Positions 12,211-53,709 of a stretch of 64,000 nucleotides of DNA are shown in pieces. The stretch lies in IMG/VR virus record IMGVR_UViG_3300044591_000410, positions 4,159 to 68,158 of that record, one strand, 5' to 3'. The position numbers and the translations under genes are program-made. This DNA is from a virus. The first letter of the stretch is position 1. The number at the start of each line of letters is the position of its first letter. Below the pieces are notes generated by a model. That model was not told the origin of the DNA. It was given only the letters and a program-made list of their open reading frames with translations, and did no database searches.

Positions 12211-12349
12211 CTGGCTCCTGTCAAGGGAGTTTCGCTACCAGAGGGGCTAGGATGGCTTAAGTGTCATCCTAGCCTTTTAAGGCGGTCTGGGTAGCCCCCG
12301 GACCAAGGAAGCCCTAGGATTGGCTCTTAGGGGCTAGAAAGAGGTGACC

Positions 12350-25800: not shown

Positions 25801-28800
25801 CAAATACTTAGTGATTTAGATCCACGGTTTGAAACAGCTTTAGGATATGTAAAAAAACAGCTAGACTCAATTGATTTTACAAATGCAAGTAAAACAGGTG
25901 ATCTGCTTGTAAAAGTAAATAAAGCAATACAAGCTTTAAGTGTAGAAGATTACCCAATTAAAGAAGCTTTAAGAACTTTCCAAAGCTCAGAACTTAAAAG
26001 ACTACAAGAAGAGTATGGTGTTAATATAGCTAACTATATTGAAACAGCGGATAAGATTAGTGATTTGCAAGACTCCTTGTATAATGAGTTAGCTAACATT
26101 GAACTTGGACCTGAAGCTTTAATTAACCCAGCAGATCCTAATAGCATGACTTATAGACAACTGTTTGATATGCTATATAACCTTAAGCATAACCAATCAA
26201 ATGCTAGAAAAGCTATTAGAGATCATCTAGGTTCACTGCCGTTTGATACAGCAGACAAAGCAGATAAACTAAAAGCACTGTTTACTAAACTAGACGAACT
26301 GGAAGCAGTTGAACAAGGTTTAATTAAAGCTAACCTAGAAGGCCATTCTTTAAAGTTTGGTGAAGCAGTTTCTAACTGGGTAGATGAAACAAGAACAGCA
26401 TTTGATGTATTTAAAACAGGCGTTAATAAAACCGAAAGTACTCGTTTCTTTAACCTAATGAAAGAAGGTTTAAATACAGGGTACTTAATTAGCAGAGTAA
26501 GAGGAGAAGACGGTAAGTATTTATACCGTGTTCTAGATCTTTACCACCTTACCGATCAACGGTATGGAAGCATTGTTCCGACCGAAGTACATGCTGACTT
26601 TGACAAGATTGTCAGTATTATTCAAGTGCGGAAACAAACAAGATCTAACTTAACTTTTGATAAAGTCCTACAACGAAAGAAGAAACTACTTAGCGAAAAC
26701 GAAGCTATTTACGGACCAACTTTTGAATATCTTGAATCATTTAAAACCATTGTTGATGGTGCTTCTGTATTTGATATTAACTATGGTGCTTTCTTTAATG
26801 GGCCAGAGTTAATACGAAAAGAAGTAGAAAGCCTAAGAAAAACAATACAAGATTCTTTAGAGGTTGTAAACACTGGTCGCAAAGAAGTTATTGCAGCTAT
26901 TAATGATATTCAAAAAGCAGGACGAAGCGAAGCGAAGGTTGCTAACCTTTCTCCTGAACTACGAAGTTTAATGGCAGAAGCTCTAAAACGACAAAGAGAA
27001 TATCAAGAAACTATTAGTAAACTTCTTAAAGAAGGCTTTGTTGGAACAAACCCACAACAAGCAAAAGCTTTACAATCTGTCTTTGATAGAATTCAAAAGC
27101 TTAGCAAGTTAAGTATAGAGCTTTACGAAGGTAAGATTCCTACTTCTTATGAAGTTCAAAAAGCTGTAGCAAAAGCACCAGAACTAAAAGCCTTTAAGAA
27201 CCGAGCCACAGCTAATAGACGGCGACTCTTAAAGAAAGAACTAGAAGAGAATGCAGATATTCTTGACTCTGAAATTAATACAGCAAATGAAGTTAAAGAA
27301 CTAAACCGTCTTGGTAAACTTAGTAAGAGTATCAAACGAGAAATGCGTAGGGTTGAAAACGGAGAATCTTCTGAGTTGTTTATTAAAACACCAGAAGGAT
27401 ATGTGATTCCAGACCCCAATCTTACAATGGATAGATTGGTAACCCTTCTTAACCTTAGCGACACCAGACCTGAATACGCTGTGATTAGAGAAACAGCTAA
27501 TGATTTCTTGCGACATGTTATTTATAAGAGACTGGTTAAGCAAAACAAATTGGCTGGCAGAGAGGTTAATTTCCGGTATGCAGACGCAATTGGAAGAGAT
27601 GTAGACCAAATCGAAGATATAGTTGGTACTGTCTTTGCATCTTTCTTAGATTTTGAAAGAAAGATTGCAGTAAATGAACCTATCTTAATAAGCGCTGGTT
27701 TATCGGTTAAAACCAAAGATTTATTAGAAAACGCTCAAAGATTGTTTGATACTTACAAAGCATCAAAAGATAGAGCAGAACAGCAAGAGTTATTACGACA
27801 GATCTATAAGATAGAGGGAGATCTGGATACAGTCTTACTACAAAGAAAACTTAAACGGGATGATACTGGAAAAGTTATTCGCAAGAAGGACGGAACCCCA
27901 GTTATTGAAACCAGCTTTGTTAAGTATGAGCCAGTTGATAAGAAAATCAAAACCAACTATCTCGTATCTGCTGCCATTAAAAAATATGTAGCGCAGTCCT
28001 TTAAGAAAAATACAAATGTTGAAAGATATGAAAAAGCTCTTTCTGAAGGTCTTGTTGAAAACAATGTTGGGTTGCGTTCATCCAACGGAGACTATATTGA
28101 CCCAACCAGAGCAGAAGAACAGTTTGAAATAAACCAACTTCTATCTATGTTTGCATTTGATAGAGACTCGTTTAATCAGTACTTACTGAGAACAGGTAAA
28201 CTAAACACGCTAGGGGTAATGCCAAATAACCTTACAAATATTGGAGTTATCCAAAGAGGTTATTCATTCTTTATAGAAGAACTTCTTCGTGTTACTAGTT
28301 TAGATGTACCTGAAGTTACTATAGGTAACAAGAAATATCAAATACTAACAAAACCAGAGGAACGAACTTTGCTTGGACGAAGAGAAGTATCTCGTCTAAA
28401 TACGAATGAGTTCCTGCGATATATGGTAGACAGAATGGCGCTAGAGTACCGAACCTTAGCTAAGGATTCTACAGTACCCTCTATAATTGGTAACCTGTCT
28501 TTAGAATACTCTGATAAACAACTTAAAGAAATATTCTCAAGAGAACTTATTAAAGAGTATCTGCGAGTTGTTAGAAAGGATATAAGAAAAGTTGTTGGTG
28601 ATACCTTTATTGACCTAGACGAAGTTCCTGCTGGTCGTTTGTTAAATCGGTTAGAAGAAGAAAGAAGAAGTATTCTAAAGAACTTTAGTGATGAAGTTCG
28701 TAAGAACAGCTCAAGCAAAGATTGGGTAGATGTTACAAAGCCTCGTTTAGAAGCAGCTAAGAACAAGAAACTAGCTGCTCTAGATGCTCAGATTGCTAGT

Positions 28801-31800
28801 GCTGAAAAAAAGATTGGAAGACTTCCAGCTTTAATTCGGACACTAGAAGAAGAACTATTTGAAGAATCCTTAAAACCAACAATTAAGAATTATAAAACAA
28901 TTCCAATTGACAGAGACATTACTGGAGTTGTAACAAAAACAAATAGAGGTGGTGCTAAGTCAACAAGGTCATTAACAGATCTTATAGGTAAGTACTTAAA
29001 CGGAACTTACTCTGAAAGTATTTTTGTACGCGATATACAGTTTGCTGCAAGACAATCTGATTTATTAAAAGCATTCAATAATTATGTAAAGAGAAATTAT
29101 GATGTTGATACATTTGAAGAATATGTAATTAAAAAAGCTAAAGATAATACAGATGAATATGCAGATGGTTTAACTAAAGGTATTGAACTACGGCAAGAAG
29201 CACCATACGCTATTGAAAAGATTGATGAAGCCGAACAAGTAATGCTCGGTATTATTTCAGAAAACTTCAAAGGCCAAACCGAAAAAGTATACTTAGGATT
29301 AGCTGAAACAGATAAAGATACTGCTCTACTGTTCCTAACTACTGAACTAGCAGAACTTCAGAAGAACCTGACAAAGATGGGTGCATCTCAAGAAAAGCTG
29401 GAAAAGGTTACTAAGGTCCAGATTAAAGCACTTAGCGAACTGCTGACGCAATACTCTGATAGTCCTCTAGCTGCTAAGGCAGAATACAATGCTTTCCCCT
29501 TATTAAATGAACTGCGAAAAGTTTCTAATGAGGCAGTAACCAATGTATCTGAAGGAAGCCCAGCTTACCTAATAGCATCTAAGCTATCTATTGAAGATGT
29601 AAACGCATACAAACGAGTAGCTGGTTCTCTTCTATTAAATGAAAATGTTAAAGATGCTTCTAAGATATTACCTGAACAAAGCATAATTAATATTCTAAAT
29701 GATCTAGAATCATTTGGTTTTATTCAGAAACTTTCTACTTCTCCATTTAAAACTATTGAAGATTTAGTAGCACAAAACGGAAGCGTAGCTTCAATGTTTG
29801 AACTAACTACTCAGTCTTTAAATAACAGTCTTAATAAAGTTCTAGACTTTAGCCCAGAAAGTTTAATTCTTGGAAATGCTGTTAGATCTTCTACTGCCCA
29901 GCACAGAATTATGGGAACACTACGCAGTGCTACACTAAAGAAAAAACTAGCTAGCGTAGCTCCTGATTCAGATGAAGCAAGAAGAATAACAGATGAGATA
30001 AACAATTTCCTAAGCTCTGTTGAAAAAACAGAAGCAGAAGAAATATTCCAAGCAATGGATAGATTGTTCCTTTTACAGCGAATGCAAAAAAACATTGGCA
30101 AGCTAAAGCCAGAAGATGTTGTGTCAGTTGAAGCAAGCGCTGGCGTTTCTAAAGAAGATATCATTTCATTCTTGAAACGAAAAGAAGCAGAAAATGTTTT
30201 AGAAATTGATGCTTTAAGTGCTAAGATTAGTACTTATAAAGCAAATAATTCAACTAAGATTATTCCAAAAGTTATGGAAAAAGAAGTTGGTAAGCTTCCA
30301 GATGTGAGTGTAGAACCTTGGAAGAATGGTAAGCTTGTTTCTGTAGCAGATCAAATTATGGATGCTCTAAAAGGTAATACTAAACATTATACTGGAAAGC
30401 ATGCAGGAGCTACCAAGACAGGGCTACAAGAAGATATGGAAGCATGGGCTGCTGGTATGAACGGTGAGCCTTATACCCCCACAACCAGTGGAACTGTGCC
30501 TATACTAGAGTCGGCTAGAGCCAAGTCTTATGACGGTAGTGGTAAACCATACTTTAATAACGACGATCTGGTTGATCCTCAAAACGCTGAACTGGCAAGT
30601 TATCTGTCTAATGACTTAGGCGCTATAACTCAGAAGTACGCCAAAACAGCGGGAGCTAGTCTATCAGCTGATGTAGCATTGAGGGATAAGATTAAGCAGA
30701 AGTATGGTATTGATCTACCAAAGAACTTTGGTTGGTCTGATTGGATGGATGTTCTTCGGGATTATGTGGAAGGATTAAAACGAAATCCTTTAGTAGACTT
30801 TGAAGGAAGAGCAATTAAGATGAGCGATAAAGAAATTAATCATCTTAAAGAAATTATTGATGGCATGTCCAGAATTCGCAGAGAGTTTACTGGTGAGGTT
30901 GATTCAACAGAGCTTCCGCCTCACGGTATTAGACAAGCAGCTAAGATGGGCAAGAATGCTTTACTGTCTACCGTTGGTCCTTTCATGGGTACTGCGGTAC
31001 TGCTGACCGAACTACCTTTCAGTTTGTTCCGAAAGAACGGTTCTCTAAAGTCCTTCTTAAAGGGATTAGAAGTGTTATCTACTGGAAGCAGCCGAAGGAG
31101 ATTGGAGCATACTGCATTTGCTTTTGAAAAATTAAACCGAGGTTTCCACTCTAAGTTTGGTGGAGAAGAATTAATTAATAATGAGATTACTTGGTTTAAT
31201 AGACTGAAAGAAAACTTTAGAAACATGTTCTCCCCAGACGAAAGAATGTTACGAGAGTCTGGGGCTGGTAGACTATGGGATCATTTGGATAACTTCTTAC
31301 AACACAAAGCAGCACTAAGCATGGAGCTGGGTGGCCTACCTCACTTTGTGGAAAGAGTTTTAGCTGTAGCTTTAGAAAAAGAAAAGACTAATATATTTGG
31401 TCTACGGTCTAAGATTAGAAATGCCTTATCCCTTATGAACACTCCTGAATTCAGGGCAGTAGCAGAACAGGCTGCTAGAGGTGATAAGAAAGCTCAGGCT
31501 GAAATTGTAAAACGATTTACTGGTATAGCCAGAGAGTCTGGAGTACCTATTGAAACTCTGTCTTACATTCGTATGGCTAAGATTGATACTCCTGAAGAAA
31601 TGGATAGAATTATCAGAATCATGGAAGTAGGTTCAGATGGTAATGGATCATTTGATGGTAATGTTGCAATTTCTAAACTGTACAAACAGTCTAACTCTAG
31701 AGTTGCAAAGAACATTGAAATGCCAATGTTTGAAGAATCAGCAGCTAAGCTGGCTTACTTCTTAGAACTATCCGCCAGAGAAGCATCTCCCGAACCATTT

Positions 31801-32664
31801 GGTTTGGGTAAGATTACTTATAAGTTTGAAAAGAATTCTTTGGGTGCTCAGCTACTATTCCTAGGTAGCTACCCCTTAGCTGCATTTAATACTTATAGTA
31901 TTCGTAATGGCACAAGCAAGACCGCAGCAGCAATGATTGCACTATCGCTGGGTGTCTTTGGATTTGAAATCTTTGCTAAGAGAATGAGAGATACTATGCG
32001 GGGTAAGAGAAACATGGAATCCAACTACGATGAGTATAGGGTTTCTCCGCTGGCTTACTTCCTGAGGGATGCCTCATATGCTCAGCTTGGTGGTCACCTA
32101 GATGCTGCCCTTGGCCCTATGTTTGTCATGGCAGGCAAGTCTATGGCTCCACCCGGTACAAGTAAGGATTTCAAGTATCAGGCTCCAGAGTTCGGGGTAA
32201 TGCCTCAGGCAGCTTATGTCAATGACCTAGCCCGTCAGACATACCAAGCTGTTAATGGGGTAGTAACTAAGGGCGATGGAAAGGAAGCGATAGACCTAGC
32301 TGGCCGGGTTGCTATAGATATGTCGGTAGGTAAAGGTGTAGTGGATACTGCTGGTATGATGCTTAACCTTATGGAAGCTACTAAGGCAGCAGCCATAAAT
32401 CAACAACTACATCAGTATGGTCCAGTGCATACACCTACGGAAGAGGCATTCCATGATTATTTAATGCAGGGATTAATCTCTCATTATGTTTATGGAAGTA
32501 CTAATATTCCAGAATTTAAGATGCCACCCGAACCTATGGTTAAACAGCCCAAACCTACAATTAAACCAGTCAAGGTAGGTTCTCAATTTAAGAAATTAAA
32601 TATAGTAGACCAACTAAAGGGATCTACTGGAGTTTCTTCCGCTTTGGCAGAATCTTTAGAATAA
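19861..32664 (+). CDS. Giant internal virion protein, gp16-like (4267 aa)
   Basis: Last gene of the ejection-protein block; Gly/Ala hydrophobic segments near the N-terminus; long coiled coils; C-terminal region resembling gp16 relatives ('YLSNDL..I..KY', 'LGAQLLFLGSYP'). Confidence 0.7.
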   Translation: MTQYSTLGQSNSFYSNFGYFQPLEETDYQNVINKSINDNINVSLAGELQPNIFSTGDYSLKLTKGGPVNPTAVDLANSVLLDKTQEWMGGIFGRQPAVIDAAYYGLFGEKASGWKYVPFVDSWSKVEQERRRVDEQFVANKQKEIDTLLSERYKEQAPLVVEALQRNLGVNWKETFAKGANNKNAYAEQVYRFLLDETRKTTNKNALYSSLLNLKSNDKPIWNWTYANILSDYDVLASTALTLGVESLLTGSAVTLSAAASSATASAARATGIRLGATQGSEGVIRLAQTIGKTTGSPNWWSLFKSDYTLSTRLPAATRNAQRVLTQALQSGKITQDQIKVLQRLRPDLFTTAATGETIIANPFSIATNARKYLQFRGLEIAGTGQKVAINSVNRSKLVDALSKVALTTDDILLVGKSSSHLNYLFKVGKSGAVQGALDGATNAVFMGKERADQMLMAENIDIPSYNLSEVISSAALFGAFGFTLGIGFGAITSPVRTGLSALTAIDGRASLGTPNAKRGLLQYVGPDRMTESEFNLRNALASVVGKQAALAAEVNANSRVAIVRDIVKLLTGSEEIGVRLVDPKFLEANNLTIEEVSGLITFITQELIGKSSKSSQIGSIPAGLMDDIIAAYAQWKRANPTAAVNAFEIKAVAGEDFLKRLTEHGVNTNNSGKPSVLKTQTIDEINQEVSFLETVEAVEKLGASVVDGKIKVLKRRKQILEAKELRRKELPDLKKQLEELNTKDKTPEVEADIKKLEEKIKRYERQAGEPLKDNNPNAVIIRSSSTSVRTLQINGFDISTSRSGLLLSMWLDTVNKIHALAGQNTAEARKAVNQLRQEAKELEEQIDSLYRKPEEKSREEIRKNWFDEQFATIKNDPTKLAQFRQALGAALSQSSATTGSRAVSMNWLSQLRFESGLGELYTRLASYGTGTADLMYSVSDVLFHTMEMLDSSQLFSYASLADMGSSLSVKEAVDRGYRLAMGVNSITEQLRRMDPRKAALIEQRVVRDIREGATQLSDTVGLNEAEINLANDLITNTRKFFTFFGDQAKKLGKDFEDSFTYVPQMLTRKLDSTQQAKLAQLGYEAAVRKIMKEGSIPWSELERLGQIERGTDGSIINIPETSLFYKTDDAGKALPLSEMVAQMPKTMDELRLLEAQRRKLNNELAELPEDLRQILEAPNTARVNKEKLKRALDEQKNRVKKLFDRAVGVNGGFNIFDINALAKSLYTMKKYATELGELDYVAYADDLLKKLDDNGLAINEKPTSPRDHIINGQDDLIKAGSKVEDLELKVVDTFAPEITLTRTAPDGTKTVEKLSEGFVVKQWVDKTKAPGLDFENPAMSLQTVLLNRAGSVAEKQAAANAGFQYTISNIVSRLEDMTGTSAGDSVRIGFNIEDLRTGFITEEHIFNWMRSEKFKSELNQIRQLTKNTGLNDVELGLLLINKYVGEAKEYQLKSIKQLAEQRATTLLENSPYAKSLQLEKTRINQELLQIEEAIKLTSSADEQKLTNLTKQKIKLLVEKENLSKELKEMEQAISLKVSSQIERTLANVSEDINTLFLKSRRAGKPLDNLDTLTVFDKRLNKVLADALNIENPNFVSWKPVDSEALSSQVKTRVVTDLEQTTKLYQQKTNLVLERIKLQKEISNTTPPSLIDAIEKAYKAAGVDDIEKAVKTFAKNNDRISKLVKTIKQKKKQLSALADDTSEEAGVLTNDIAKLEETLEKSLNKVRKTVMSERAKVATEVKKKAIKQLEKDKAKAQERLTKVEEAIGDLSNQIKALDKKSEVSVYGTLFNKLSGEEQEALLEYIKLTKGTAVGLESLVFTEQLGKELENLFEFGGPEALAKWGISPENFVDNKLNAAGRLEYLQYLAKEMPGEKGAELKASRAKFIEESTSMEKPKINLETDPKAVIERAKLRNKAIQEARELENKIVQSIEDLDADYELAAALDKVKEALELASTNTSLTEAVKVSISTELDNAKAVIQILSDLDPRFETALGYVKKQLDSIDFTNASKTGDLLVKVNKAIQALSVEDYPIKEALRTFQSSELKRLQEEYGVNIANYIETADKISDLQDSLYNELANIELGPEALINPADPNSMTYRQLFDMLYNLKHNQSNARKAIRDHLGSLPFDTADKADKLKALFTKLDELEAVEQGLIKANLEGHSLKFGEAVSNWVDETRTAFDVFKTGVNKTESTRFFNLMKEGLNTGYLISRVRGEDGKYLYRVLDLYHLTDQRYGSIVPTEVHADFDKIVSIIQVRKQTRSNLTFDKVLQRKKKLLSENEAIYGPTFEYLESFKTIVDGASVFDINYGAFFNGPELIRKEVESLRKTIQDSLEVVNTGRKEVIAAINDIQKAGRSEAKVANLSPELRSLMAEALKRQREYQETISKLLKEGFVGTNPQQAKALQSVFDRIQKLSKLSIELYEGKIPTSYEVQKAVAKAPELKAFKNRATANRRRLLKKELEENADILDSEINTANEVKELNRLGKLSKSIKREMRRVENGESSELFIKTPEGYVIPDPNLTMDRLVTLLNLSDTRPEYAVIRETANDFLRHVIYKRLVKQNKLAGREVNFRYADAIGRDVDQIEDIVGTVFASFLDFERKIAVNEPILISAGLSVKTKDLLENAQRLFDTYKASKDRAEQQELLRQIYKIEGDLDTVLLQRKLKRDDTGKVIRKKDGTPVIETSFVKYEPVDKKIKTNYLVSAAIKKYVAQSFKKNTNVERYEKALSEGLVENNVGLRSSNGDYIDPTRAEEQFEINQLLSMFAFDRDSFNQYLLRTGKLNTLGVMPNNLTNIGVIQRGYSFFIEELLRVTSLDVPEVTIGNKKYQILTKPEERTLLGRREVSRLNTNEFLRYMVDRMALEYRTLAKDSTVPSIIGNLSLEYSDKQLKEIFSRELIKEYLRVVRKDIRKVVGDTFIDLDEVPAGRLLNRLEEERRSILKNFSDEVRKNSSSKDWVDVTKPRLEAAKNKKLAALDAQIASAEKKIGRLPALIRTLEEELFEESLKPTIKNYKTIPIDRDITGVVTKTNRGGAKSTRSLTDLIGKYLNGTYSESIFVRDIQFAARQSDLLKAFNNYVKRNYDVDTFEEYVIKKAKDNTDEYADGLTKGIELRQEAPYAIEKIDEAEQVMLGIISENFKGQTEKVYLGLAETDKDTALLFLTTELAELQKNLTKMGASQEKLEKVTKVQIKALSELLTQYSDSPLAAKAEYNAFPLLNELRKVSNEAVTNVSEGSPAYLIASKLSIEDVNAYKRVAGSLLLNENVKDASKILPEQSIINILNDLESFGFIQKLSTSPFKTIEDLVAQNGSVASMFELTTQSLNNSLNKVLDFSPESLILGNAVRSSTAQHRIMGTLRSATLKKKLASVAPDSDEARRITDEINNFLSSVEKTEAEEIFQAMDRLFLLQRMQKNIGKLKPEDVVSVEASAGVSKEDIISFLKRKEAENVLEIDALSAKISTYKANNSTKIIPKVMEKEVGKLPDVSVEPWKNGKLVSVADQIMDALKGNTKHYTGKHAGATKTGLQEDMEAWAAGMNGEPYTPTTSGTVPILESARAKSYDGSGKPYFNNDDLVDPQNAELASYLSNDLGAITQKYAKTAGASLSADVALRDKIKQKYGIDLPKNFGWSDWMDVLRDYVEGLKRNPLVDFEGRAIKMSDKEINHLKEIIDGMSRIRREFTGEVDSTELPPHGIRQAAKMGKNALLSTVGPFMGTAVLLTELPFSLFRKNGSLKSFLKGLEVLSTGSSRRRLEHTAFAFEKLNRGFHSKFGGEELINNEITWFNRLKENFRNMFSPDERMLRESGAGRLWDHLDNFLQHKAALSMELGGLPHFVERVLAVALEKEKTNIFGLRSKIRNALSLMNTPEFRAVAEQAARGDKKAQAEIVKRFTGIARESGVPIETLSYIRMAKIDTPEEMDRIIRIMEVGSDGNGSFDGNVAISKLYKQSNSRVAKNIEMPMFEESAAKLAYFLELSAREASPEPFGLGKITYKFEKNSLGAQLLFLGSYPLAAFNTYSIRNGTSKTAAAMIALSLGVFGFEIFAKRMRDTMRGKRNMESNYDEYRVSPLAYFLRDASYAQLGGHLDAALGPMFVMAGKSMAPPGTSKDFKYQAPEFGVMPQAAYVNDLARQTYQAVNGVVTKGDGKEAIDLAGRVAIDMSVGKGVVDTAGMMLNLMEATKAAAINQQLHQYGPVHTPTEEAFHDYLMQGLISHYVYGSTNIPEFKMPPEPMVKQPKPTIKPVKVGSQFKKLNIVDQLKGSTGVSSALAESLE

Positions 32665-32667
32665 CCA

Positions 32668-32686
32668 ATAGTTGGAGCTATGGAAG
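32668..32686 (+). promoter_or_regulatory. Putative phage RNAP promoter copy (phiOR-like position)
   Basis: ATAGTTGGAGCTATGGAAG, matches the 5-copy consensus ATAGYTGGGGCTACKGATA. Confidence 0.6.
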
Positions 32687-32843
32687 AACAACCCAAGGGG
32701 TATACTAGGTATATCCCTTGGGTTGTACCATAGTTGTCCTATAGATTTAATATATTATAATATTATATACTATAGGGGAATAGCTTAGGAGTAGTATAGG
32801 AGTCCCCTAAGGGGGAATCCCTACTCAACCAAGCTATCCCCTA
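32676..32843. repeat. Two long inverted repeats flanking an AT-rich tract (end-of-genome / origin / packaging region)
   Basis: ACAACCCAAGGGGTATAC-TAG-GTATATCCCTTGGGTTGT; TAGGGG-ATAGCTT-GAGTAG...CTACTC-AAGCTAT-CCCCTA; tttaatatattataatattatata between them. Confidence 0.7.
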
Positions 32844-33160
32844 GGAATCTACCCCGGTAATTGCGGGGTTGGTCCCTAGTGGATATCCTTGGTATCTGTC
32901 ATTATGGCGGTAGAAATCGACTTAGGGGTCGTGGATTTACAACGGGGTATTTGACATAGTGTGGCCGCGCACACCCCCCGCCACCCCCCGTCGATGTCCC
33001 CTAGGGGCATATGCCGGGTCAATCCGAAGCAATCCGAACAATTTGCCTAGGATTCCCATGCTCCGAGTTCATGGGGTATATCTATTGGAATCAGAGGAGT
33101 TTCCCATCAGCGTGATGGTATCCCCTGCTTCTTTCCTAGTGTTCTCGAAAGGAACAAGCG

Positions 33161-33427
33161 ATGTCCAACAAGGATATGGCTGCGGCACTCGCCGCTATCG
33201 TCGCCCTGCTCTCGCAGCAGGGCATCACCGTCCCCACCACCAAGCCCGTGAAGGCGCGCAAGGCCAAGGCGAAGGCCGAGCCGAAGGCCAAGCGCAAGAA
33301 GGGCGCAACCCCCGCTCAACGCGCTCATTACAACTCCATGAAGACCAGCCACCCTTGCCCGTTCCGTCCCGGAATGGTCGAGCGTGAAGCCTACCGCGCA
33401 GCGAAGGCTGCGGGGCTGATTGGCTGA
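33161..33427 (+). CDS. First early gene, small basic K/A-rich protein
   Basis: GAAAGGA SD; GC-rich codons; histone-like 'KARKAKAKAEPKAKRKK'. Confidence 0.8.
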   Translation: MSNKDMAAALAAIVALLSQQGITVPTTKPVKARKAKAKAEPKAKRKKGATPAQRAHYNSMKTSHPCPFRPGMVEREAYRAAKAAGLIG

Positions 33428-33430
33428 TCG

Positions 33431-33485
33431 GGCGACAACTTTGGAGTACCCACCCTACGGGGTGGGACTCTCCTAGGCTGTTGCC
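33431..33485 (+). ncRNA. Conserved cis RNA hairpin motif, copy 1 (cUACGg tetraloop)
   Basis: Core GGAGTA-CCCACC-CTACGG-GGTGGG-ACTCTCC; homologous to 35413-35463 with compensatory changes. Confidence 0.7.
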
Positions 33486-33493
33486 AAGGCTGT

Positions 33494-33523
33494 GCCACAG
33501 CAGAACTGTGGCTGTTTCTTTCT
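33494..33523 (+). terminator. Intrinsic terminator-like hairpin
   Basis: GCCACAG-CAGAA-CTGTGGC followed by TGTTTCTTTCT. Confidence 0.5.
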
Positions 33524-33537
33524 GAAAGGTTTCAAAC

Positions 33538-33654
33538 ATGGGAATCATTCTTGGTACTTTGGCTTTGTTGGGTCTTGCAAGTTTCTTGGCATTTGCAGTC
33601 ATGTGGGACACCATGACCCCGAGCGACCGCCGCAAGGCGGGATTCAAGGACTAA
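33538..33654 (+). CDS. 38-aa early membrane peptide (not in ORF track)
   Basis: GAAAGG SD; MGIILGTLALLGLASFLAFAVMWDTMTPSDRRKAGFKD. Confidence 0.65.
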   Translation: MGIILGTLALLGLASFLAFAVMWDTMTPSDRRKAGFKD

Positions 33655-33660
33655 CATTTC

Positions 33661-33696
33661 ACTCAAGGTAAACCTAACGGTTTGCCTTGGGTTTCT
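33661..33696 (+). other. Intergenic hairpin (terminator or RNase III-type processing site)
   Basis: ACTCAAGGTAAACC-TAAC-GGTTTGCCTTGGGT followed by TTCT. Confidence 0.55.
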
Positions 33697-33763
33697 AGGT
33701 AGCACTTTGCTACCAGCAGCGTCACGGCTGAACCGTGATATTCCTTACAGAAAGGAGACATCC

Positions 33764-34141
33764 ATGAAGGATGTCATCATCGTGACCCGCCATGCGGGTC
33801 TAGTCATTGTCCTCGCAGAGGACTACGGAATTGCGGGGCCAGTCTTGGCCCACGTTACTGCCGCAGATGTACGCGGCAAGGCCGTCGTTGGAGTGCTTCC
33901 GCTGCATTTGGCTGCGGAAGCGAAGTCGGTGACCGAGGTTACCCTGAATCTCCCCCCCGAACTGCGGGGGCAAGAACTCACCATTGAGCAGGTGCGGCAG
34001 CATATGAAGGGACTCCGCACCTATGTGGTGCGAAGCCTTGAAGCCTTCAACCTCAACAACGAAGAGGAGTGGAGGTCGGGGTATGGTGGAAGCATGGGGT
34101 GGGGCTCGATCCCCGACCCCATCGGGAGGAAGTCGAAGTGA
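33764..34141 (+). CDS. Csx16 (Cas_VVA1548)-like protein, candidate cyclic-oligoadenylate ring nuclease / anti-CRISPR
   Basis: 'IIVTRHAG', 'AHV', 'VVGVLPLHLAA', 'LNLPPELRGQELT.E' and 'LRTYVV' follow the Csx16 pattern SRHxG..H..VIGTLPxHLAA..LDLP..LRGxELS; GAAAGGAG SD. Confidence 0.8.
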   Translation: MKDVIIVTRHAGLVIVLAEDYGIAGPVLAHVTAADVRGKAVVGVLPLHLAAEAKSVTEVTLNLPPELRGQELTIEQVRQHMKGLRTYVVRSLEAFNLNNEEEWRSGYGGSMGWGSIPDPIGRKSK

Positions 34142-34452
34142 AGAAGCATCAGCCTTGGGGCAAGGACATCGTTATCATCAAGGTTTACGACCTTGATGCC
34201 GTGCTCCTCTTCGACCGTGCTGTAATCGAAGAGGTAGCAAGGGAAGAGGCGGAGAAGATCGCCTCGACCCTGTTCCCCGGATACAAGGTGCAATGGTGTA
34301 CCCCGTCCGGAAAGACCCTTGGTCAGGTGACTGCCGCACCTGCACCGCAACACAAGTTGCCTGTTTGCCCTTTCTGTGGGCAACTCCTTGTCACCATGCG
34401 TGACGAGGTTGGAGCAAAGTGCGCCATGTGTTTCAGTTGGATCCACGGATGA
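34138..34452 (+). CDS. Early protein with C-terminal Zn ribbon
   Basis: GTG start with GGAGG SD; CPFC...CAMC. Confidence 0.65.
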   Translation: MKKHQPWGKDIVIIKVYDLDAVLLFDRAVIEEVAREEAEKIASTLFPGYKVQWCTPSGKTLGQVTAAPAPQHKLPVCPFCGQLLVTMRDEVGAKCAMCFSWIHG

Positions 34453-34508
34453 TAGCGATTCGTGGACGCAGCACCTCTCGCGCGTAAACATACGCGCGTT
34501 GGTATATG

Positions 34509-34597
34509 GGCTTGATTTGTCCTAGTGGACAACGGCCCACGGCCTCTGCATACGCGCATATGTGTATGCTTATGGCGGCTTGATTTGTCCTAGTGGA
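34509..34597 (+). repeat. Perfect 21-bp direct repeat, candidate promoter or operator
   Basis: GGCTTGATTTGTCCTAGTGGA at 34509-34529 and 34577-34597 in a non-coding gap. Confidence 0.85.
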
Positions 34598-34700
34598 GAT
34601 GCTCACCCCTGCATAGGCGAAGGCTTATGTGGGGGTTTCACCATGCATCAGCGTAGGTGTATGGTTGTTTGGTTTCTTTCTTTATGAAAGGAAGGGGCAA

Positions 34701-35408
34701 ATGAACATCAGCCCCGATATCGTCCAGCAGATCCTCCTCTCCCTCTTGCAGAGTCAGGCTGCTTCTGCCACCACCACCGTGGCTCCCGCTCCTGTGGCTA
34801 CGGCCTCCCCTTCGTGGGTTGACGCAGTCACCGCTGCCTTTCCTGCCATCGTTGGCAGCAACGGCAAGCGCGGGTCGATGAACATCGCGAAGAATCCTTG
34901 CTTCACGGCATCGACAAAGGAAGTTCACGAAGGTGTGAACAACGAGATCGCCAACGGCAAGCCGGGGATTTGGTGCGCCGAGGCTTGCTACCGTGCTGCC
35001 AAGAAGGGCATTGCGGTCAGCGAGTACCTCAAGGCCAAGACTCCGGCTCCTGCCAAGGCTGCAACCCCTTCTCCTACCGTTACGGTGGCGACCATTCCGC
35101 CTGAACTGGCGGCAATGGCCGAGCAGATGGGCTTCACCTTGGTTCCCAAGGCTGATGCTTCCGTGGCTCCCCCTGTCAAGCGCATGAAGGGGCAGGCCCG
35201 TTTGACCTGCCTTCAGACTGCGTTGGCTGCGGCCAAGGCGGGCGAGCGCGGCGCTGCCAAGGTGGAGTTGGTGCAGGTCGGACTCCTCAAGGAGTCTGAC
35301 AAGATGCGTCTTGGCAAGATGATCCCGCTGATCGAAGCGGAGATTGCCAAGATGACCACGGTCAGCAAGGCTCCTCACGCGGGAGTCCCCAACCTGACGG
35401 TGGCCTGA
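34701..35408 (+). CDS. Early A/P/K-rich protein, probable paralogue of 33161-33427
   Basis: GAAAGGAAGG SD; shares SM..PC(P)F..(R/K)PG..EA(C)YRAAK..G motif with the first early gene. Confidence 0.8.
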   Translation: MNISPDIVQQILLSLLQSQAASATTTVAPAPVATASPSWVDAVTAAFPAIVGSNGKRGSMNIAKNPCFTASTKEVHEGVNNEIANGKPGIWCAEACYRAAKKGIAVSEYLKAKTPAPAKAATPSPTVTVATIPPELAAMAEQMGFTLVPKADASVAPPVKRMKGQARLTCLQTALAAAKAGERGAAKVELVQVGLLKESDKMRLGKMIPLIEAEIAKMTTVSKAPHAGVPNLTVA

Positions 35409-35412
35409 ACAT

Positions 35413-35463
35413 CCCGAGTTTCGGAGTATCCCTTCTACGGAAGGGAACTCTCCCAAACTTGGG
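35413..35463 (+). ncRNA. Conserved cis RNA hairpin motif, copy 2 (cUACGg tetraloop)
   Basis: Core GGAGTA-TCCCTT-CTACGG-AAGGGA-ACTCTCC; followed by hairpin TACTAGTAAC-ATACGG-GTTACTAGTA (35465-35490). Confidence 0.7.
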
Positions 35464-35523
35464 GTACTAGTAACATACGGGTTACTAGTATAAGTTAGCA
35501 TCTTCACTAGAAAGGAGAATCAC

Positions 35524-37557
35524 ATGAATCAGAAACTGCTTGAGCAGCAGTTTGTGGGTTGTGTGAACAACGCAGAAGTTGTGATTGCTGGTTTCGCAGA
35601 AGCCCTTGGTAACTTGCGGTTTAGCCGCAAGCCTGCATGGTTCAAGTTCGTGCAGCAGAATACCAACTGGGTGGCGAACGCTACGGTGTATGCCGTCGTT
35701 CGCAATGTTTCGGAACGAGCAACCACCGAAGTTCACGCTGTCATTGCAGACCTTGCGTTTGCAATCCAGCGGGACTGGCAGGTGGATCGTAACGATGCGT
35801 TGACTTGGGCATGGAACATCGTTCACTTGGCTGAACAAGCCGGGTGGGTGACCTTGTACAAGACTTCGGAAATGACCCTCGTCAAGATGACCTCACGCTT
35901 TGCGTTTCAGCTGTATGAGAACAATGCGTGGGGCATGGCGGGTTGTTTCCGTCCACCGATGGTGGAACGACCACGGCCACACCGTGACAGTCGCCCCGGA
36001 GGATACCACAACCCACAGATGCGGCGTGGTATTAGCCACGGATCATGGAAGGAACTTGCGAGTGCGCCTCGCATGATTCTCACCATGAATCGCATGATGT
36101 TCACGAAGTGGCATATCTCGCAAGAGATGTTGTCCATTGCGAAGGAAGTCTTTGCACTTCCTGAAGTGATCGTGGATCATCGTCGTGATCGGTATGGACA
36201 CGACACCACGCTGGCAATGGCCGAGCAGTTCAGCGGTGTGGAGTTCTACAATCCCACCTACGCTGATGTTAGCGGTCGCATTTATTATGAGTGTGACTTG
36301 CTGTCACCGCAGGGCAATGACCTTGCGCGTGGTTTGCTGCATGGAACAGACCATGCCCTTACTGATAAGGGTTGGTTCTGGCTTGCGGTGCATGTGGCAA
36401 ACTCTTTCAGCGGCATCGGTGGCGTTGGTAAACTTGACAAGACTCCTTACAAGGATCGTGTCAAGTGGACACACAAGAACTCCGATACGCTCTGCCTCGT
36501 TGCCGAAGACCCCATGCGTTACATGCATGTGTGGTTCAACGGCATCGGGAAGGGAGCGGGATCATTCCAAGCACTTGCTGCGCTGCTTGCTTGGCGACGA
36601 GCCAAGGACACCGGACGATGCTGTTTGCATGTGAGGTTGGATCAGACAACCTCCAACTACGGCATCAAGGGTGGGCTGCTGCGAGATCAGCAACTGTGCG
36701 AGTTGACCAACATGGTTCCCTCGTCCGAGGTGCAGGATATGCACAGCGTGACGGCTACAAACCTTATGGGTTTGTTGGCTGATTCCGATTATTCGGATTT
36801 CACAACCATGATTGCTGGGACACCGGACAAGCCTAACCGCAAGTTCGTCAAGTCACCCAGCATGGTCAGCGGCTACGGTGGTACGACCCGTGGCATTGCA
36901 CAGTCGTTGTTTGGAAAGCGTGAGTGGGCTTTCCACGACAACAAGTGGAAGAAGGTTGCCGAAGAAGGCAGCATCCCCGACCTTGTGTCTGGTGACGATC
37001 CTCGCCATCAGTTCAAGGTGGCAATGGATATTGCTTCCATGTGTAAGGAAGCAGTAGAAATCACCGCTCCCGGTGCGTTCAAGGTCATGCGTTATCTCAA
37101 GGAGGTTGTCAAGGTTGCCCGTGAGAAGAAGATGGAGAACATTATGTGGTATTCTCCATCAGGCAAACTCATTGTGCTTCATCCTCGTAAGCGGGGTGAG
37201 CAGATGATCGTGGCATCATCCGAGTTTGGTGGTGCTTCACTCAAGTGGCATCCTTGGACTGATGAAACCAACTGGCGTAAGATGGCTACGGCCATCTCTC
37301 CACGATGGATTCAACCCATCGACGCTTCCCTTCTTCACATTGCAGGCAGTATGTTCCGGCATGAGTTTGCCGGGGTGCATGACTGCATCCAATGTCACCC
37401 CAATCAGATGGGGAAGTTTCTTGTGTACATGAGGAAGGCAATGTACATGATTATGGAATCCAATCCTCTTGTCAAGTTCTGTGAGCAGTTCGGCATTACT
37501 GTTGAGCAGGGCGATTGGGATACCAAGGATTGCCTCAAGGCTAATCCTTGGCACTAA
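35524..37557 (+). CDS. Divergent T7-type single-subunit RNA polymerase (RNAP-1, 677 aa)
   Basis: PMV..P...GGY; DVSGRIY..LSPQGNDLARGLL; WLAVHVAN; motif A LDQTTS; motif B RKFVKSPSMVSGYG; ISPRWIQPIDAS; motif C VHDC. Confidence 0.9.
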   Translation: MNQKLLEQQFVGCVNNAEVVIAGFAEALGNLRFSRKPAWFKFVQQNTNWVANATVYAVVRNVSERATTEVHAVIADLAFAIQRDWQVDRNDALTWAWNIVHLAEQAGWVTLYKTSEMTLVKMTSRFAFQLYENNAWGMAGCFRPPMVERPRPHRDSRPGGYHNPQMRRGISHGSWKELASAPRMILTMNRMMFTKWHISQEMLSIAKEVFALPEVIVDHRRDRYGHDTTLAMAEQFSGVEFYNPTYADVSGRIYYECDLLSPQGNDLARGLLHGTDHALTDKGWFWLAVHVANSFSGIGGVGKLDKTPYKDRVKWTHKNSDTLCLVAEDPMRYMHVWFNGIGKGAGSFQALAALLAWRRAKDTGRCCLHVRLDQTTSNYGIKGGLLRDQQLCELTNMVPSSEVQDMHSVTATNLMGLLADSDYSDFTTMIAGTPDKPNRKFVKSPSMVSGYGGTTRGIAQSLFGKREWAFHDNKWKKVAEEGSIPDLVSGDDPRHQFKVAMDIASMCKEAVEITAPGAFKVMRYLKEVVKVAREKKMENIMWYSPSGKLIVLHPRKRGEQMIVASSEFGGASLKWHPWTDETNWRKMATAISPRWIQPIDASLLHIAGSMFRHEFAGVHDCIQCHPNQMGKFLVYMRKAMYMIMESNPLVKFCEQFGITVEQGDWDTKDCLKANPWH

Positions 37558-40266: not shown

Positions 40267-40273
40267 TACCTTT

Positions 40274-40346
40274 GCCCCTATAGCTCAGTTGGTAGAGCAG
40301 TAGACTTTTAATCTATCGGTCGTAGGTTCGATCCCTACTGGGGGCA
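40274..40346 (+). tRNA. tRNA-Lys(UUU)
   Basis: GCCCCTA/TGGGGGC acceptor, GCTC/GAGC D-stem, CT-TTT-AA loop, GTAGG-TTCGATC-CCTAC; no encoded CCA. Confidence 0.95.
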
Positions 40347-40351
40347 TTCAC

Positions 40352-40425
40352 AGAAGGGTGGCTGAAATAGATAGAGCGCATGCCTTATAAGCGTGAATAT
40401 GTGGGTGCAACTCCCGCCCCTTCTA
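40352..40425 (+). tRNA. tRNA-Ile(UAU)
   Basis: AGAAGGG/CCCTTCT acceptor, CATGC-CT-TAT-AA-GCGTG anticodon arm, atypical T-loop TGCAACT. Confidence 0.8.
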
Positions 40426-40436
40426 TTAAGTGCCAT

Positions 40437-40510
40437 ATTCCCGTAGCTCAACTGGATAGAGCGTGGCACTTCTAATGCTAAGGTTAGTGGTTCAAGTCCA
40501 CTCGGGAATG
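40437..40510 (+). tRNA. tRNA-Arg(UCU)
   Basis: ATTCCCG/CGGGAAT acceptor, TGGCA-CT-TCT-AA-TGCTA anticodon arm, AGTGG-TTCAAGT-CCACT. Confidence 0.95.
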
Positions 40511-40525
40511 TTCTAAAGGAGATCC

Positions 40526-53607: not shown

Positions 53608-53612
53608 GGTAT

Positions 53613-53694
53613 GGCTCCGTGGCGGAACAGGCAGACGCAGTGGACTTAAAATCCGCCGCCTAACGGCATGGGGGTTCGATTCCCCCCGGAGCTA
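53613..53694 (+). tRNA. tRNA-Leu(UAA)
   Basis: GGCTCCG/CGGAGCT acceptor, GTGGA-CT-TAA-AA-TCCGC anticodon arm, long variable arm, GGGGG-TTCGATT-CCCCC. Confidence 0.95.
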
Positions 53695-53709
53695 TTGAAA
53701 GGAGCTTTT

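What the first reader, a model, noticed from the sequence alone, without database searches (positions are those of the whole stretch)
33764..34141. Phage early gene encoding a Csx16-like protein: candidate anti-type III CRISPR ring nuclease
Seen: TRHAG / AHV / VVGVLPLHLAA / LNLPPELRGQELT motifs in one of the first genes from the probable left end, with no CRISPR array or cas genes in the window. Known: Csx16 (Cas_VVA1548) is a type III CRISPR ancillary family classed with ring nucleases, and viruses use the ring nuclease AcrIII-1 (DUF1874) to destroy cA4. Inference: this phage co-opted a Csx16-type enzyme as an immediately expressed anti-CRISPR or anti-cyclic-nucleotide defence factor.
Basis: partly seen in the sequence, partly recalled or inferred. 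Interest (0 to 1): 0.86.

Follow-up and report, generated by a model that had tools for sequence, protein, structure and literature searches.

The report
Phage-borne Csx16 ring nuclease gene
An uncultured lake-water relative of phage T7 carries, among its first genes, an intact copy of Csx16, a small enzyme family shown to destroy the alarm molecule of type III CRISPR immunity, so it is a credible but untested anti-CRISPR of an already known kind.

Summary
ORF 33764-34141 (+, 125 aa) matches Pfam Cas_VVA1548/Csx16 over the whole domain (E 3e-17, 63 bits, cut-off 25). It keeps every family-invariant residue. The AF2 model is confident (pLDDT 87.9), and its two best solved-structure matches are the ring nucleases AFV3-109 (DUF1874) and Crn2, at low Z (5.3, 4.5). 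A homodimer is predicted (0.79 against 0.02).

The host DNA is a 68-kb T7-like phage record with two RNA polymerases, no Cas10 and no CRISPR array. The gene is the third ORF after the late-to-early junction. It avoids exactly the four codons read by the phage's own tRNAs.

Three other lake metagenomes carry the same cassette without the gene and its overlapping zinc-ribbon partner. Sixty-eight further IMG/VR contigs carry homologues, and 0 of 50 tested have Cas10.

Csx16 was shown to be a cA4-specific ring nuclease, and was noted in two phage genomes, in 2025 (PMC12409355). This scan has also reported phage Csx16 many times on other DNA. Verdict: a new member of a known kind. Activity, timing and host are inferred.

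The parts
33764..34141 (+). Csx16-family gene (125 aa, P0001): core domain residues 1-90 plus a C-terminal helix and tail (92-125)
   Evidence: Pfam PF09652 E 3e-17. Invariant T8 R9 H10 H30 G43 P46 R68 G69 all present. AF2 model pLDDT 87.9. Homodimer score 0.79 against best control 0.02.
33753..33757 (+). Shine-Dalgarno AGGAG, 6 nt before the ATG
   Evidence: Read directly from the sequence. Close homologues also begin MKD..., which confirms the start codon.
34138..34452 (+). Partner gene of 104 aa (P0258). Its GTG start overlaps the Csx16 stop (GTGA). It has a conserved N-terminal domain and a C-terminal CPFC...CAMC zinc-ribbon-like motif.
   Evidence: No Pfam or PHROG family. Only one homologue in 5.8 billion proteins (P0259, 60% identity), on a 980-nt contig. 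The 80%-identical Csx16 P0002 also has a 980-nt longest contig.
33757..34473 (+). Strain-variable two-gene module (Csx16 plus zinc-ribbon gene), skipped in a contig of run X7
   Evidence: table 5: joint 33756->34474, side 64.
33536..34504 (+). Larger segment (small membrane-like ORF, Csx16, zinc-ribbon gene) replaced by 265 other letters in contigs of runs X6 and X13
   Evidence: table 5: joint 33535->34505, sides 159 and 67.
32665..33160 (+). Non-coding late-to-early junction after the 4267-aa gene. It holds a copy of the 19-bp motif, a hairpin, an AT-rich stretch and a sigma-70-like site (32734-32761, 10 of 12).
   Evidence: An independent contig (X6 record 15) bridges 32053-33298.
33161..33427 (+). 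First ORF after the junction (88 aa, basic, no family)
33538..33654 (+). Second ORF (38 aa, hydrophobic N-terminus)
33656..33775 (+). Highly structured leader of the Csx16 gene. The start codon sits in the loop of a 7-bp hairpin.
   Evidence: MFE -53.9 kcal/mol, z -7.2, 0 of 200 shuffles fold as well.
34509..34597 (+). Two perfect 21-bp direct repeats immediately right of the variable module
   Evidence: family D5.
35524..37557 (+). Additional (first) T7-type RNA polymerase, 677 aa, in the same GC-rich early cassette
   Evidence: PF00940 E 1.7e-30; phrog_414.
40273..40511 (+). Phage tRNA-Lys(UUU), tRNA-Ile(UAU) and tRNA-Arg(UCU). Together with tRNA-Leu(UAA) at 53612-53695 they read the four codons that the Csx16 gene and its cassette avoid.

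Best explanation
The gene encodes a small homodimeric ring nuclease of the Csx16 family that the phage makes at the very start of infection. If the host's type III CRISPR complex senses phage RNA and Cas10 makes cyclic tetra-adenylate (cA4), the dimer would bind cA4 in the pocket lined by the conserved Thr-Arg-His, His30, His48 and Arg68 residues. It would cut cA4 into linear di-adenylates, so that cA4-dependent CARF effectors are never switched on. This is the tactic known for AcrIII-1. Shown here: family membership, intact conserved residues, predicted fold and dimer, phage setting without cas genes, accessory (present or absent) status in natural populations. Inferred: cA4 cleavage by this copy, early timing, and a host with cA4 signalling.
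For: Family and fold:
- Pfam PF09652 E 3e-17 over the whole domain. PADLOC Csx16 4.4e-16.
- All 11 invariant columns of a 37-sequence alignment are kept.
- AF2 pLDDT 87.9, above 92 for residues 1-90.
- Homodimer: score 0.79, best of 3 controls 0.02. That mark was reached by 20 of 30 proteins solved as pairs of one chain and by 1 of 23 solved as single chains. The runs agree in at least 66% of contacts and partner pLDDT is at least 79. My own alignment was used and AMP rode along, so the calibration holds only roughly.
- Natural tandem Csx16-Csx16 fusions exist.

Phage setting:
- T7-like layout, no Cas10, no array.

Timing (inferred):
- Third ORF after the late-to-early junction and upstream of both RNA polymerases.
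- GC3 is 0.71 with no AAA, AGA, ATA or TTA codons. Late genes have GC3 0.25 and use those four codons heavily, and they are exactly the codons read by the four phage tRNAs.

Accessory-gene behaviour:
- Contigs of three other lake metagenomes join across the gene.
- 0 of 41 loci of related phages carry it.
- 68 other IMG/VR contigs carry homologues and share essentially nothing else with this phage. 0 of 50 tested have Cas10.
- In 69 viral copies T8 is kept in 67, R9 and H10 in 68, H30 in 64 and R68 in 66.

Literature:
- Csx16 degrades cA4 but not cA3 or cA6 at 100-fold substrate excess, and was found in 2 of 28,114 phage genomes (PMC12409355, passages).
Against: - No biochemical or expression data exist for this copy.
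- NCBIfam TIGR02620 gives only 24 bits against a cut-off of 46.35, so the protein is divergent from the curated CRISPR-linked seed group.
- The host is unknown, so a type III system using cA4 is assumed.
- Neither the physical genome end nor the promoter serving the gene is established. The sigma-70 scan found 7 sites against 6.1 expected, and a phage-type 19-bp motif also lies upstream.
- The high GC could reflect recent transfer rather than early-gene adaptation. Csx16 genes are GC-richer than their phage in 42 of 68 viral contigs.
- In the few cellular genomes tested, Csx16 was never on the same contig as Cas10.
Confidence: 0.62

Rival explanations
1. The protein binds a cyclic oligonucleotide but works differently. 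It could be a sponge that sequesters cA4, or an enzyme for another signal (cA3, cA6, or a CBASS or other defence messenger). It would then still be counter-defence, but not a cA4 ring nuclease.
For: Csx15, a neighbouring small family, turned out to be a good cA4 sponge and a very slow nuclease (PMC13148439, passages). P0001 is below the TIGR02620 cut-off. It also carries a C-terminal extension absent from most family members.
Against: The Thr-Arg-His, His30 and Arg68 positions are almost invariant in viral copies, which is what catalysis predicts. The tested Csx16 turns over 100-fold excess cA4 and ignores cA3 and cA6 (PMC12409355). The same authors argue that sponging is ineffective against the large cOA amounts of type III systems, and note that Csx15 is absent from phages.
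Confidence: 0.15
2. The gene is a passenger with no counter-defence role. It could be a recently transferred GC-rich cassette gene that is neutral, decaying, or used for something unrelated to CRISPR.
For: The gene is missing from related phages and from other populations of the same phage. It is compositionally unlike most of the genome. Cellular homologues tested here were not next to Cas10.
Against: The ORF is intact with a good ribosome-binding site. All conserved residues are kept here and across 69 viral copies from phages of 29-69% GC. It is translationally coupled to a partner that co-varies with it. Presence or absence in a variable early region is typical of counter-defence genes.
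Confidence: 0.1
3. Artefact: a chimeric assembly, or a chance ORF carrying an ankyrin-like motif.
For: There is an abrupt GC jump at 32.9-38 kb. The PDB sequence search with the family profile hit only designed ankyrin repeats, through the G-x-x-PLHLAA stretch.
Against: An independent contig bridges the junction (X6 record 15, 32053-33298), and others cover the cassette. Five runs hold 97-100% of the words, though they may be the source. Pfam lists no ankyrin family even at E<=10 and matches Csx16 end to end. Relatives of the phage also have GC-elevated DNA after the giant gene.
Confidence: 0.01

Closest known systems
Cellular Csx16 (Pfam PF09652 Cas_VVA1548 / NCBIfam TIGR02620), the stand-alone cA4-specific ring nuclease of type III CRISPR loci (Hoikkala et al. 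2025, PMC12409355)
   Different: This copy is encoded by a phage with no cas genes. It scores below the TIGR02620 cut-off. It has a 35-residue C-terminal extension and is coupled to a zinc-ribbon gene. Its presumed role is to defeat the alarm rather than reset it.
AcrIII-1 / Crn2 (DUF1874), the viral ring-nuclease anti-CRISPR
   Same: A small viral homodimeric protein expected to destroy cA4. It is the best structural match to the model.
   Different: There is no detectable sequence match: Pfam at E<=10 lists only PF09652. It is therefore not a DUF1874 member. The catalytic residues could not be superposed with these tools.
Csx16 homologues already seen in isolated viruses: Methanobacterium virus Drs3 ORF3 and Clostridium phage phiCs5676-1 CS5676_0038. 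The literature notes Csx16 in 2 of 28,114 phage genomes.
   Same: Phage-borne Csx16 domain without cas genes. In Drs3 it is also the third gene from a genome end.
   Different: Only 34-37% identical. These are other virus groups (an archaeal virus and a temperate Clostridium phage). In phiCs5676-1 the domain is part of a 342-aa protein. Whether these are the two genomes meant in the paper could not be checked, because the supplement is closed.
T7 gene 0.3 (Ocr), recalled from general knowledge
   Same: A counter-defence gene placed among the first genes to enter and be expressed, upstream of the phage RNA polymerase.
   Different: Unrelated protein and a different target (restriction and BREX rather than cOA signalling).
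Marine Autographiviridae subgroup AG-10.1 (Commun Biol 2025, PMC12361551)
   Same: [quoted passage not shown]
   Different: That paper does not contain the terms anti-CRISPR or anti-defense (0 occurrences each). This phage comes from lake water, and one of its small genes is now identified.

Membership tests
Csx16 (Pfam PF09652 Cas_VVA1548) | Full-length profile match above the curated cut-off | tested here: met
   63 bits against a cut-off of 25, E 3e-17, profile positions 2-90 of 91. 69 of 69 viral homologues also match.
Csx16 (NCBIfam TIGR02620, equivalog-level domain model) | Score at or above the curated cut-off of 46.35 bits | tested here: not met
   24 bits, E 3.3e-5. 54 of 69 viral homologues match at E<=0.001, best 5.1e-12.
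Csx16 | Conserved polar residues (His, Arg, acidic) proposed for cA4 binding and cleavage | tested here: met
   T8 R9 H10 H30 R68 G69 are invariant in 37 sequences, H48 and E71 nearly so, and all are present in P0001. Which residues are catalytic in the tested enzyme is in a supplement I could not read.
Csx16 | Small Rossmann-like/CARF-like fold whose nearest solved relative is DUF1874 | tested here: met
Csx16 | Homodimer | tested here: met
   Prediction only: 0.79 against best control 0.02. Tandem two-domain natural fusions exist.
Csx16 | Encoded in or next to a type III CRISPR-cas locus | tested here: not met
   Phage record without Cas10 or array. This is what makes it an anti-CRISPR candidate rather than a cas accessory gene.
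Csx16 | cA4-specific ring nuclease activity | not testable with these tools
   Needs a purified-protein assay.
AcrIII-1 / Crn2 (DUF1874) | Sequence membership of the DUF1874 profile | tested here: not met
   The Pfam scan at E<=10 returns only PF09652.
AcrIII-1 / Crn2 (DUF1874) | Shared fold | tested here: inconclusive
AcrIII-1 / Crn2 (DUF1874) | [quoted passage not shown] | not testable with these tools
   Needs a plasmid-challenge or phage assay.
acr-aca operon | Downstream gene is a helix-turn-helix Aca repressor | tested here: inconclusive
   The downstream 104-aa protein has no Pfam or PHROG family. Its model is poor (pLDDT 51.6) and Atlas scores are all below 0.9.
Ankyrin repeat | Repeated 33-residue units matching an Ank profile | tested here: not met
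   No Ank family at E<=10. Only a single stretch of about 28 residues resembles the designed-ankyrin consensus.

The most novel reading that the evidence does not exclude
The Csx16 gene and the overlapping zinc-ribbon gene form a self-contained mobile two-protein anti-type III cassette (about 33757-34473). It moves in and out of the early region of lake phages. The zinc-ribbon protein would be a required partner, either an Aca-like regulator or a subunit that targets or extends the nuclease. More broadly, Csx16-type enzymes linked to zinc ribbons would be a main, unrecognised ring-nuclease anti-CRISPR of tailed phages. Not excluded by the evidence: the pair is lost together; the only homologue of the partner appears beside the closest Csx16 relative; and CxxC...CxxC motifs are fused to or directly downstream of viral Csx16 genes in 10 of 68 contigs, against 21 of 1134 background ORFs.
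Probability: 0.2. Interest if true: 0.6.

Novelty: new member of a known kind. Interest (0 to 1): 0.4.

Why it matters
Viral ring nucleases are the main known way for viruses to disarm cOA-signalling type III CRISPR. So far only AcrIII-1 is established as a viral one, with Crn4 orthologues proposed (abstract), and no viral Csx16 has been tested.

This copy offers a clean test case. It is a short, intact, confidently modelled protein with named candidate active-site residues and a co-travelling partner gene. Natural phage populations exist that differ by exactly this module.

It also puts a function on one of the 'small, functionally unknown genes' of the two-polymerase AG-10.1-like Autographiviridae. 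By itself it does not change the picture: the family's activity and its presence in phages are in print, and this scan has reported the same kind of gene in many other phage genomes.

Tried and rejected
- **Foldseek.** Searches of PDB and BFVD gave no match at E<=1e-3. Only the exhaustive VIA-align search gave the DUF1874/Crn2 ranking.
- **PDB sequence search.** The search with the family profile returned only DARPins and ankyrin repeats, through one short PLHLAA-type stretch. I rejected this as motif coincidence.
- **PHROGs.** No family for the protein.
- **Conserved neighbour genes.** Clustering 2873 ORFs within 3 kb of 71 loci gave nothing recurrent. The exceptions were the gene itself, its antisense shadows, and a terminase-like cluster in 6 loci.
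- **Cellular context.** In Deinococcota, 7 of 364 genomes have PF09652. Cas10 was present in 4 of 5 genomes re-tested, but never on the Csx16 contig. The same held for the three genome-contig hits. This sample is too small and fragmented to judge CRISPR linkage, so I did not build a viral-versus-cellular tree.
- **Genome-contig scan.** It used one narrow pattern and found only 3 loci, so it is not comparable with the viral scan.
- **RNAP1 as bait in IMG/VR.** No pattern match.
- **Zinc-ribbon partner.** AF2 pLDDT was 51.6, too poor for a fold search. Atlas hits were all below 0.9.
- **RNA evidence.** Contigs of the one metatranscriptome laid (X19) cover the neighbouring ORF and RNAP1 but not the Csx16 gene. 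Contigs cannot show absence or expression, so this says nothing either way.
- **Sigma-70 promoter scan.** 7 sites against 6.1 expected, so it gives no support for a host promoter.
- **The listing of cluster members.** It gave no organism names for close homologues.
- **Frame error.** In some searches the 38-aa ORF was entered one base out of frame. I redid both with the same outcome. In one search the window locus was offset by one base, so the output was meaningless. I redid it.
- **Supplements.** The supplements of PMC12409355 (the tested Csx16 sequence, the conserved-residue figure, the list of phage hits) are closed, so I could not compare P0001 with the assayed enzyme.

Full report
**1. 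What is there**

The + strand ORF 33764-34141 encodes 125 residues. An AGGAG lies 6 nt upstream. A longer reading from TTG 33707 is unlikely, because close homologues start at the same MKD.

- Pfam gives a single hit, PF09652 Cas_VVA1548, at E 3e-17 and 63 bits against a cut-off of 25. It covers profile positions 2-90 of 91.
- PADLOC lists five Csx16 or Csx16-fusion models, the best at 4.4e-16.
- The narrower NCBIfam model TIGR02620 gives 24 bits, below its 46.35 cut-off.
- PHROGs has nothing.
- The word-indexed protein search found 148 proteins at E<=1e-3 among 170 candidates. All 120 listed carry PF09652, and the best is 80% identical over all 125 residues.
- The exhaustive search of 1.84 billion cluster representatives found 1265 at E<=1e-3 and 484 at E<=1e-10.

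**2. The setting is a phage**

The window is bases 4159-68158 of a 68,158-bp IMG/VR virus record. The record is classed 'linear' and CheckV estimates it 100% complete. All large ORFs are on the + strand. In order, they are:

- tail and fibre genes, a holin, the large terminase (12344-14032), internal-virion-like genes and a 4267-aa ORF ending at 32664;
- small genes, a 677-aa T7-type RNA polymerase (35524-37557), DUF932, and a full-length 826-aa T7-type polymerase (43802-46282);
- a gp2.5-like SSB, thymidylate synthase, primase-helicase, DNA polymerase and ribonucleotide reductase;
- portal, scaffold and capsid at the window's end.

The typical polymerase is at most 27% identical to any of 50,697 deposited phage records. 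The layout matches subgroup AG-10.1 of marine Autographiviridae.

The Cas10/Csm1 model finds nothing in the record at E<=1, while it rings in 8 of 14 control genomes. No CRISPR-like repeat array exists.

**3. Position and likely timing**

The contig ends fall inside the structural module: capsid at the window's end, tail at its start. The natural late-to-early boundary is therefore the 496-nt gap 32665-33160 after the giant gene. An independent metagenome contig (X6 record 15, 32053-33298, 4 differences) bridges this gap, so it is not an assembly chimera.

After the gap come an 88-aa ORF, a 38-aa hydrophobic ORF, and then the Csx16 gene. All three lie upstream of both polymerases.

Region 32-38 kb has 50-56% GC, against 32-46% in the rest of the window. 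Codon usage follows a gradient:

| Gene class | GC3 | Use of AAA, AGA, ATA, TTA |
|---|---|---|
| Early cassette | 0.65 | 3 AAA against 85 AAG; no AGA, ATA or TTA |
| Middle genes | 0.44 | intermediate |
| Late genes | 0.25 | 59% AAA of Lys, 53% AGA of Arg, 22% ATA of Ile, 34% TTA of Leu |

The four phage tRNAs read exactly AAA, AUA, AGA and UUA. Note e1-6188594 suggested this pattern, and I verified it. The Csx16 gene (GC3 0.71) can therefore be translated by the host tRNA pool alone. This fits immediate-early expression but does not prove it. Relatives of the phage also have GC-elevated DNA just after their giant gene.

The promoter is not established. The sigma-70 scan is at chance level (7 sites against 6.1 expected). 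A copy of a 19-bp motif shared by five intergenic sites also lies at 32668. The 120-nt leader is unusually structured (z -7.2), and the start codon sits in a hairpin loop.

**4. The protein**

In a 37-sequence alignment, T8, R9, H10, H30, V41, G43, L45, P46, R68, G69 and L72 are invariant. H48 and E71 are nearly so. P0001 has them all.

The AF2 model is confident: mean pLDDT 87.9, above 92 for residues 1-90. It shows a small alpha/beta domain plus a C-terminal helix at 92-104. Foldseek finds nothing at E<=1e-3.

Exhaustive alignment against 48,161 solved chains ranks two ring nucleases first and second:

A homodimer is predicted with a score of 0.79 (0.78-0.80 across runs) against 0.02 for the best of three controls. 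That mark was reached by 20 of 30 proteins solved as homodimers and by 1 of 23 solved as single chains. Contact agreement is at least 66% and pLDDT at least 79. My own alignment and two AMP were used, so the calibration holds only roughly. The interface uses residues 46-48, 50-51, 55-60, 85-92, 95 and 98-99. Natural proteins with two Csx16 domains in tandem support a dimeric unit.

**5. Distribution in viruses**

Among deposited phages, tblastn finds only two viruses. These are Methanobacterium virus Drs3 (two accessions) and Clostridium phage phiCs5676-1, at 34-37% identity. In Drs3 the gene is the third from a genome end and is already annotated Cas_VVA1548.

In IMG/VR, pattern scans confirmed homologues on 68 contigs besides this record:

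- 1 from 21 candidate stretches;
- 68 loci on 67 contigs from 102 candidates. L017 and L070 are the two ends of one contig.

This is a lower bound from two narrow patterns in 2.9 million contigs, so the gene is recurrent but rare.

- All 69 viral sequences match PF09652, and 54 match TIGR02620 at E<=0.001.
- 0 of the 50 records tested contain Cas10. Of these 50, 18 are at least 90% complete and 9 have terminal repeats.
- The contigs span 29-69% GC and share essentially no other gene with this window.
- No neighbour gene is conserved.
- The gene lies within 5% of contig length from an end in 20 of 68 contigs (6.8 expected; binomial 7e-6), in both orientations.
- T8 is kept in 67 of 69 copies, R9 and H10 in 68, H30 in 64 and R68 in 66. 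H48 is His in 44, and in 18 others the His sits one position earlier. L068 is truncated, with R68L.

**6. A strain-variable two-gene module**

The next gene (34138-34452, 104 aa) starts with a GTG that overlaps the Csx16 stop. It ends in a CPFC...CAMC zinc-ribbon-like motif and has no family.

Contigs of three other lake metagenomes carry the flanks and the RNAP1 cassette at 90-99% likeness but join across the pair:

- X7 joins 33756 to 34474;
- X6 and X13 join 33535 to 34505, with 265 other letters in between. I laid reads at 90% likeness, and the tool warns that joints below 95% can come from other organisms.

X6 also holds a contig whose loose end continues from 33801 as a divergent Csx16 allele.

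None of 41 loci of related phages (typical polymerase 26-99% identical) has a Csx16 homologue, the partner, the flanking small ORFs or a true RNAP1 orthologue. This includes the 6 loci in which both the giant gene's end and the polymerase are visible.

The partner has a single homologue in 5.8 billion proteins (60% identity). It sits on a 980-nt contig, the same length as the longest contig of the 80%-identical Csx16 P0002. That the two share one contig is an inference from the equal lengths.

Zinc-ribbon motifs are fused to viral Csx16 ORFs in 4 of 68 contigs. They occur in the ORF directly downstream in 6 of 68, and never in the upstream ORF. The background is 21 of 1134 ORFs (Fisher 9e-4). 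Fused forms also appear among database homologues.

**7. Comparison with what is known**

Csx16 was predicted to be a ring nuclease in 2020 (cited in PMC8284326, passage). In 2025 it was shown to degrade cA4, but not cA3 or cA6. The same study found Csx16 in 68 type III loci and in 2 of 28,114 phage genomes, against 36 for AcrIII-1 (PMC12409355, passages).

Later papers state that viral ring nucleases act as anti-CRISPRs, and that Csx15 is absent from phages (PMC13148439, passages). They also propose phage orthologues of Crn4 as anti-CRISPRs (PMC12830947, abstract). My two literature searches found no test of a viral Csx16.

The scan's own index holds 90 notes in at least 80 genomes with the same reading. 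The follow-ups shown all call it credible but untested.

This is therefore a new member of a known kind. The specific additions here are:

- the chassis, a two-polymerase T7-like lake phage;
- the codon evidence for timing;
- the exact present/absent polymorphism;
- the co-travelling zinc-ribbon partner.

**8. What is not shown**

- Cleavage of cA4 by this protein.
- Expression time.
- The physical genome end.
- The host and its CRISPR type.
- Any interaction with the partner.

The supplements of the key paper could not be read.

Noticed in passing
window 33161-37557 against 1-32664 and 38000-64000; tRNAs at 40273-40511 and 53612-53695: Three-step codon gradient: GC3 0.65 early, 0.44 middle, 0.25 late. 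The four phage tRNAs read exactly the A-ending codons that early genes avoid completely and late genes favour.
   Followed up: yes
window 32668, 39745, 47691, 54015, 55935: A 19-bp motif (consensus about ATAGTTGGGGCTACGGATA) occurs at five co-oriented intergenic sites, with 12 invariant columns in a 51-column alignment. It is a candidate phage-polymerase promoter. One copy sits just after the giant gene's stop.
   Followed up: partly
window 34509-34529 and 34577-34597: Two perfect 21-bp direct repeats 68 bp apart, immediately right of the variable Csx16 module and upstream of the RNAP1 operon.
   Followed up: partly
window 33656-33775: The leader of the Csx16 gene folds into five hairpins (z -7.2). 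The ATG lies in the loop of the last one, and the X7 deletion starts exactly at the foot of that hairpin (33757).
   Followed up: partly
P0001 residues 34-50: The conserved stretch D-V-R-G-K-x-V-V-G-V-L-P-L-H-L-A-A mimics the designed-ankyrin consensus well enough that a family profile pulls out about 200 DARPin chains from the PDB. This looks like coincidence, not homology.
   Followed up: yes
68 IMG/VR loci L002-L069: Csx16 genes are GC-richer than the rest of their locus in 42 of 68 contigs by more than 5 points, and in 25 by more than 10. None is more than 5 points poorer. Amino-acid composition, early-gene adaptation or transfer from GC-rich donors could each explain this.
   Followed up: partly
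L017 and L070 (one 38,130-bp IMG/VR contig): The Csx16 homologue begins 51 nt from one contig end, and its first 24 residues are repeated at the other end. The contig is therefore terminally redundant or circularly permuted, with the gene at the join.
   Followed up: no
L068:1325-1579: A viral copy with R68 replaced by Leu and a stop a few codons later. Possibly a decaying copy.
   Followed up: no
L074-L084 (Deinococcota genomes G220, G232, G245): Cellular proteins of 265-319 aa hold two Csx16 domains in tandem, and one 675-aa ORF ends in a Csx16 domain. In none is Cas10 on the same contig.
   Followed up: partly
window 19861-32664: The 4267-aa ORF has no PHROG family at E<=1e-4. It follows the terminase and internal-virion-like genes through overlapping or abutting ORFs, which suggests a late, virion-associated giant protein.
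   Followed up: no
P0048, P0051, P0165, P0187, P0256 (database homologues): Several Csx16 homologues carry an N-terminal extension of about 50 residues with a G-[LI]-G-x-K motif reminiscent of helix-hairpin-helix. Others carry N- or C-terminal zinc ribbons.
   Followed up: no
L123:1005-2927: A more distant relative of the phage has a 640-aa ORF in a 55-56% GC stretch just after its giant gene. It may be another extra polymerase of a different lineage.
   Followed up: no
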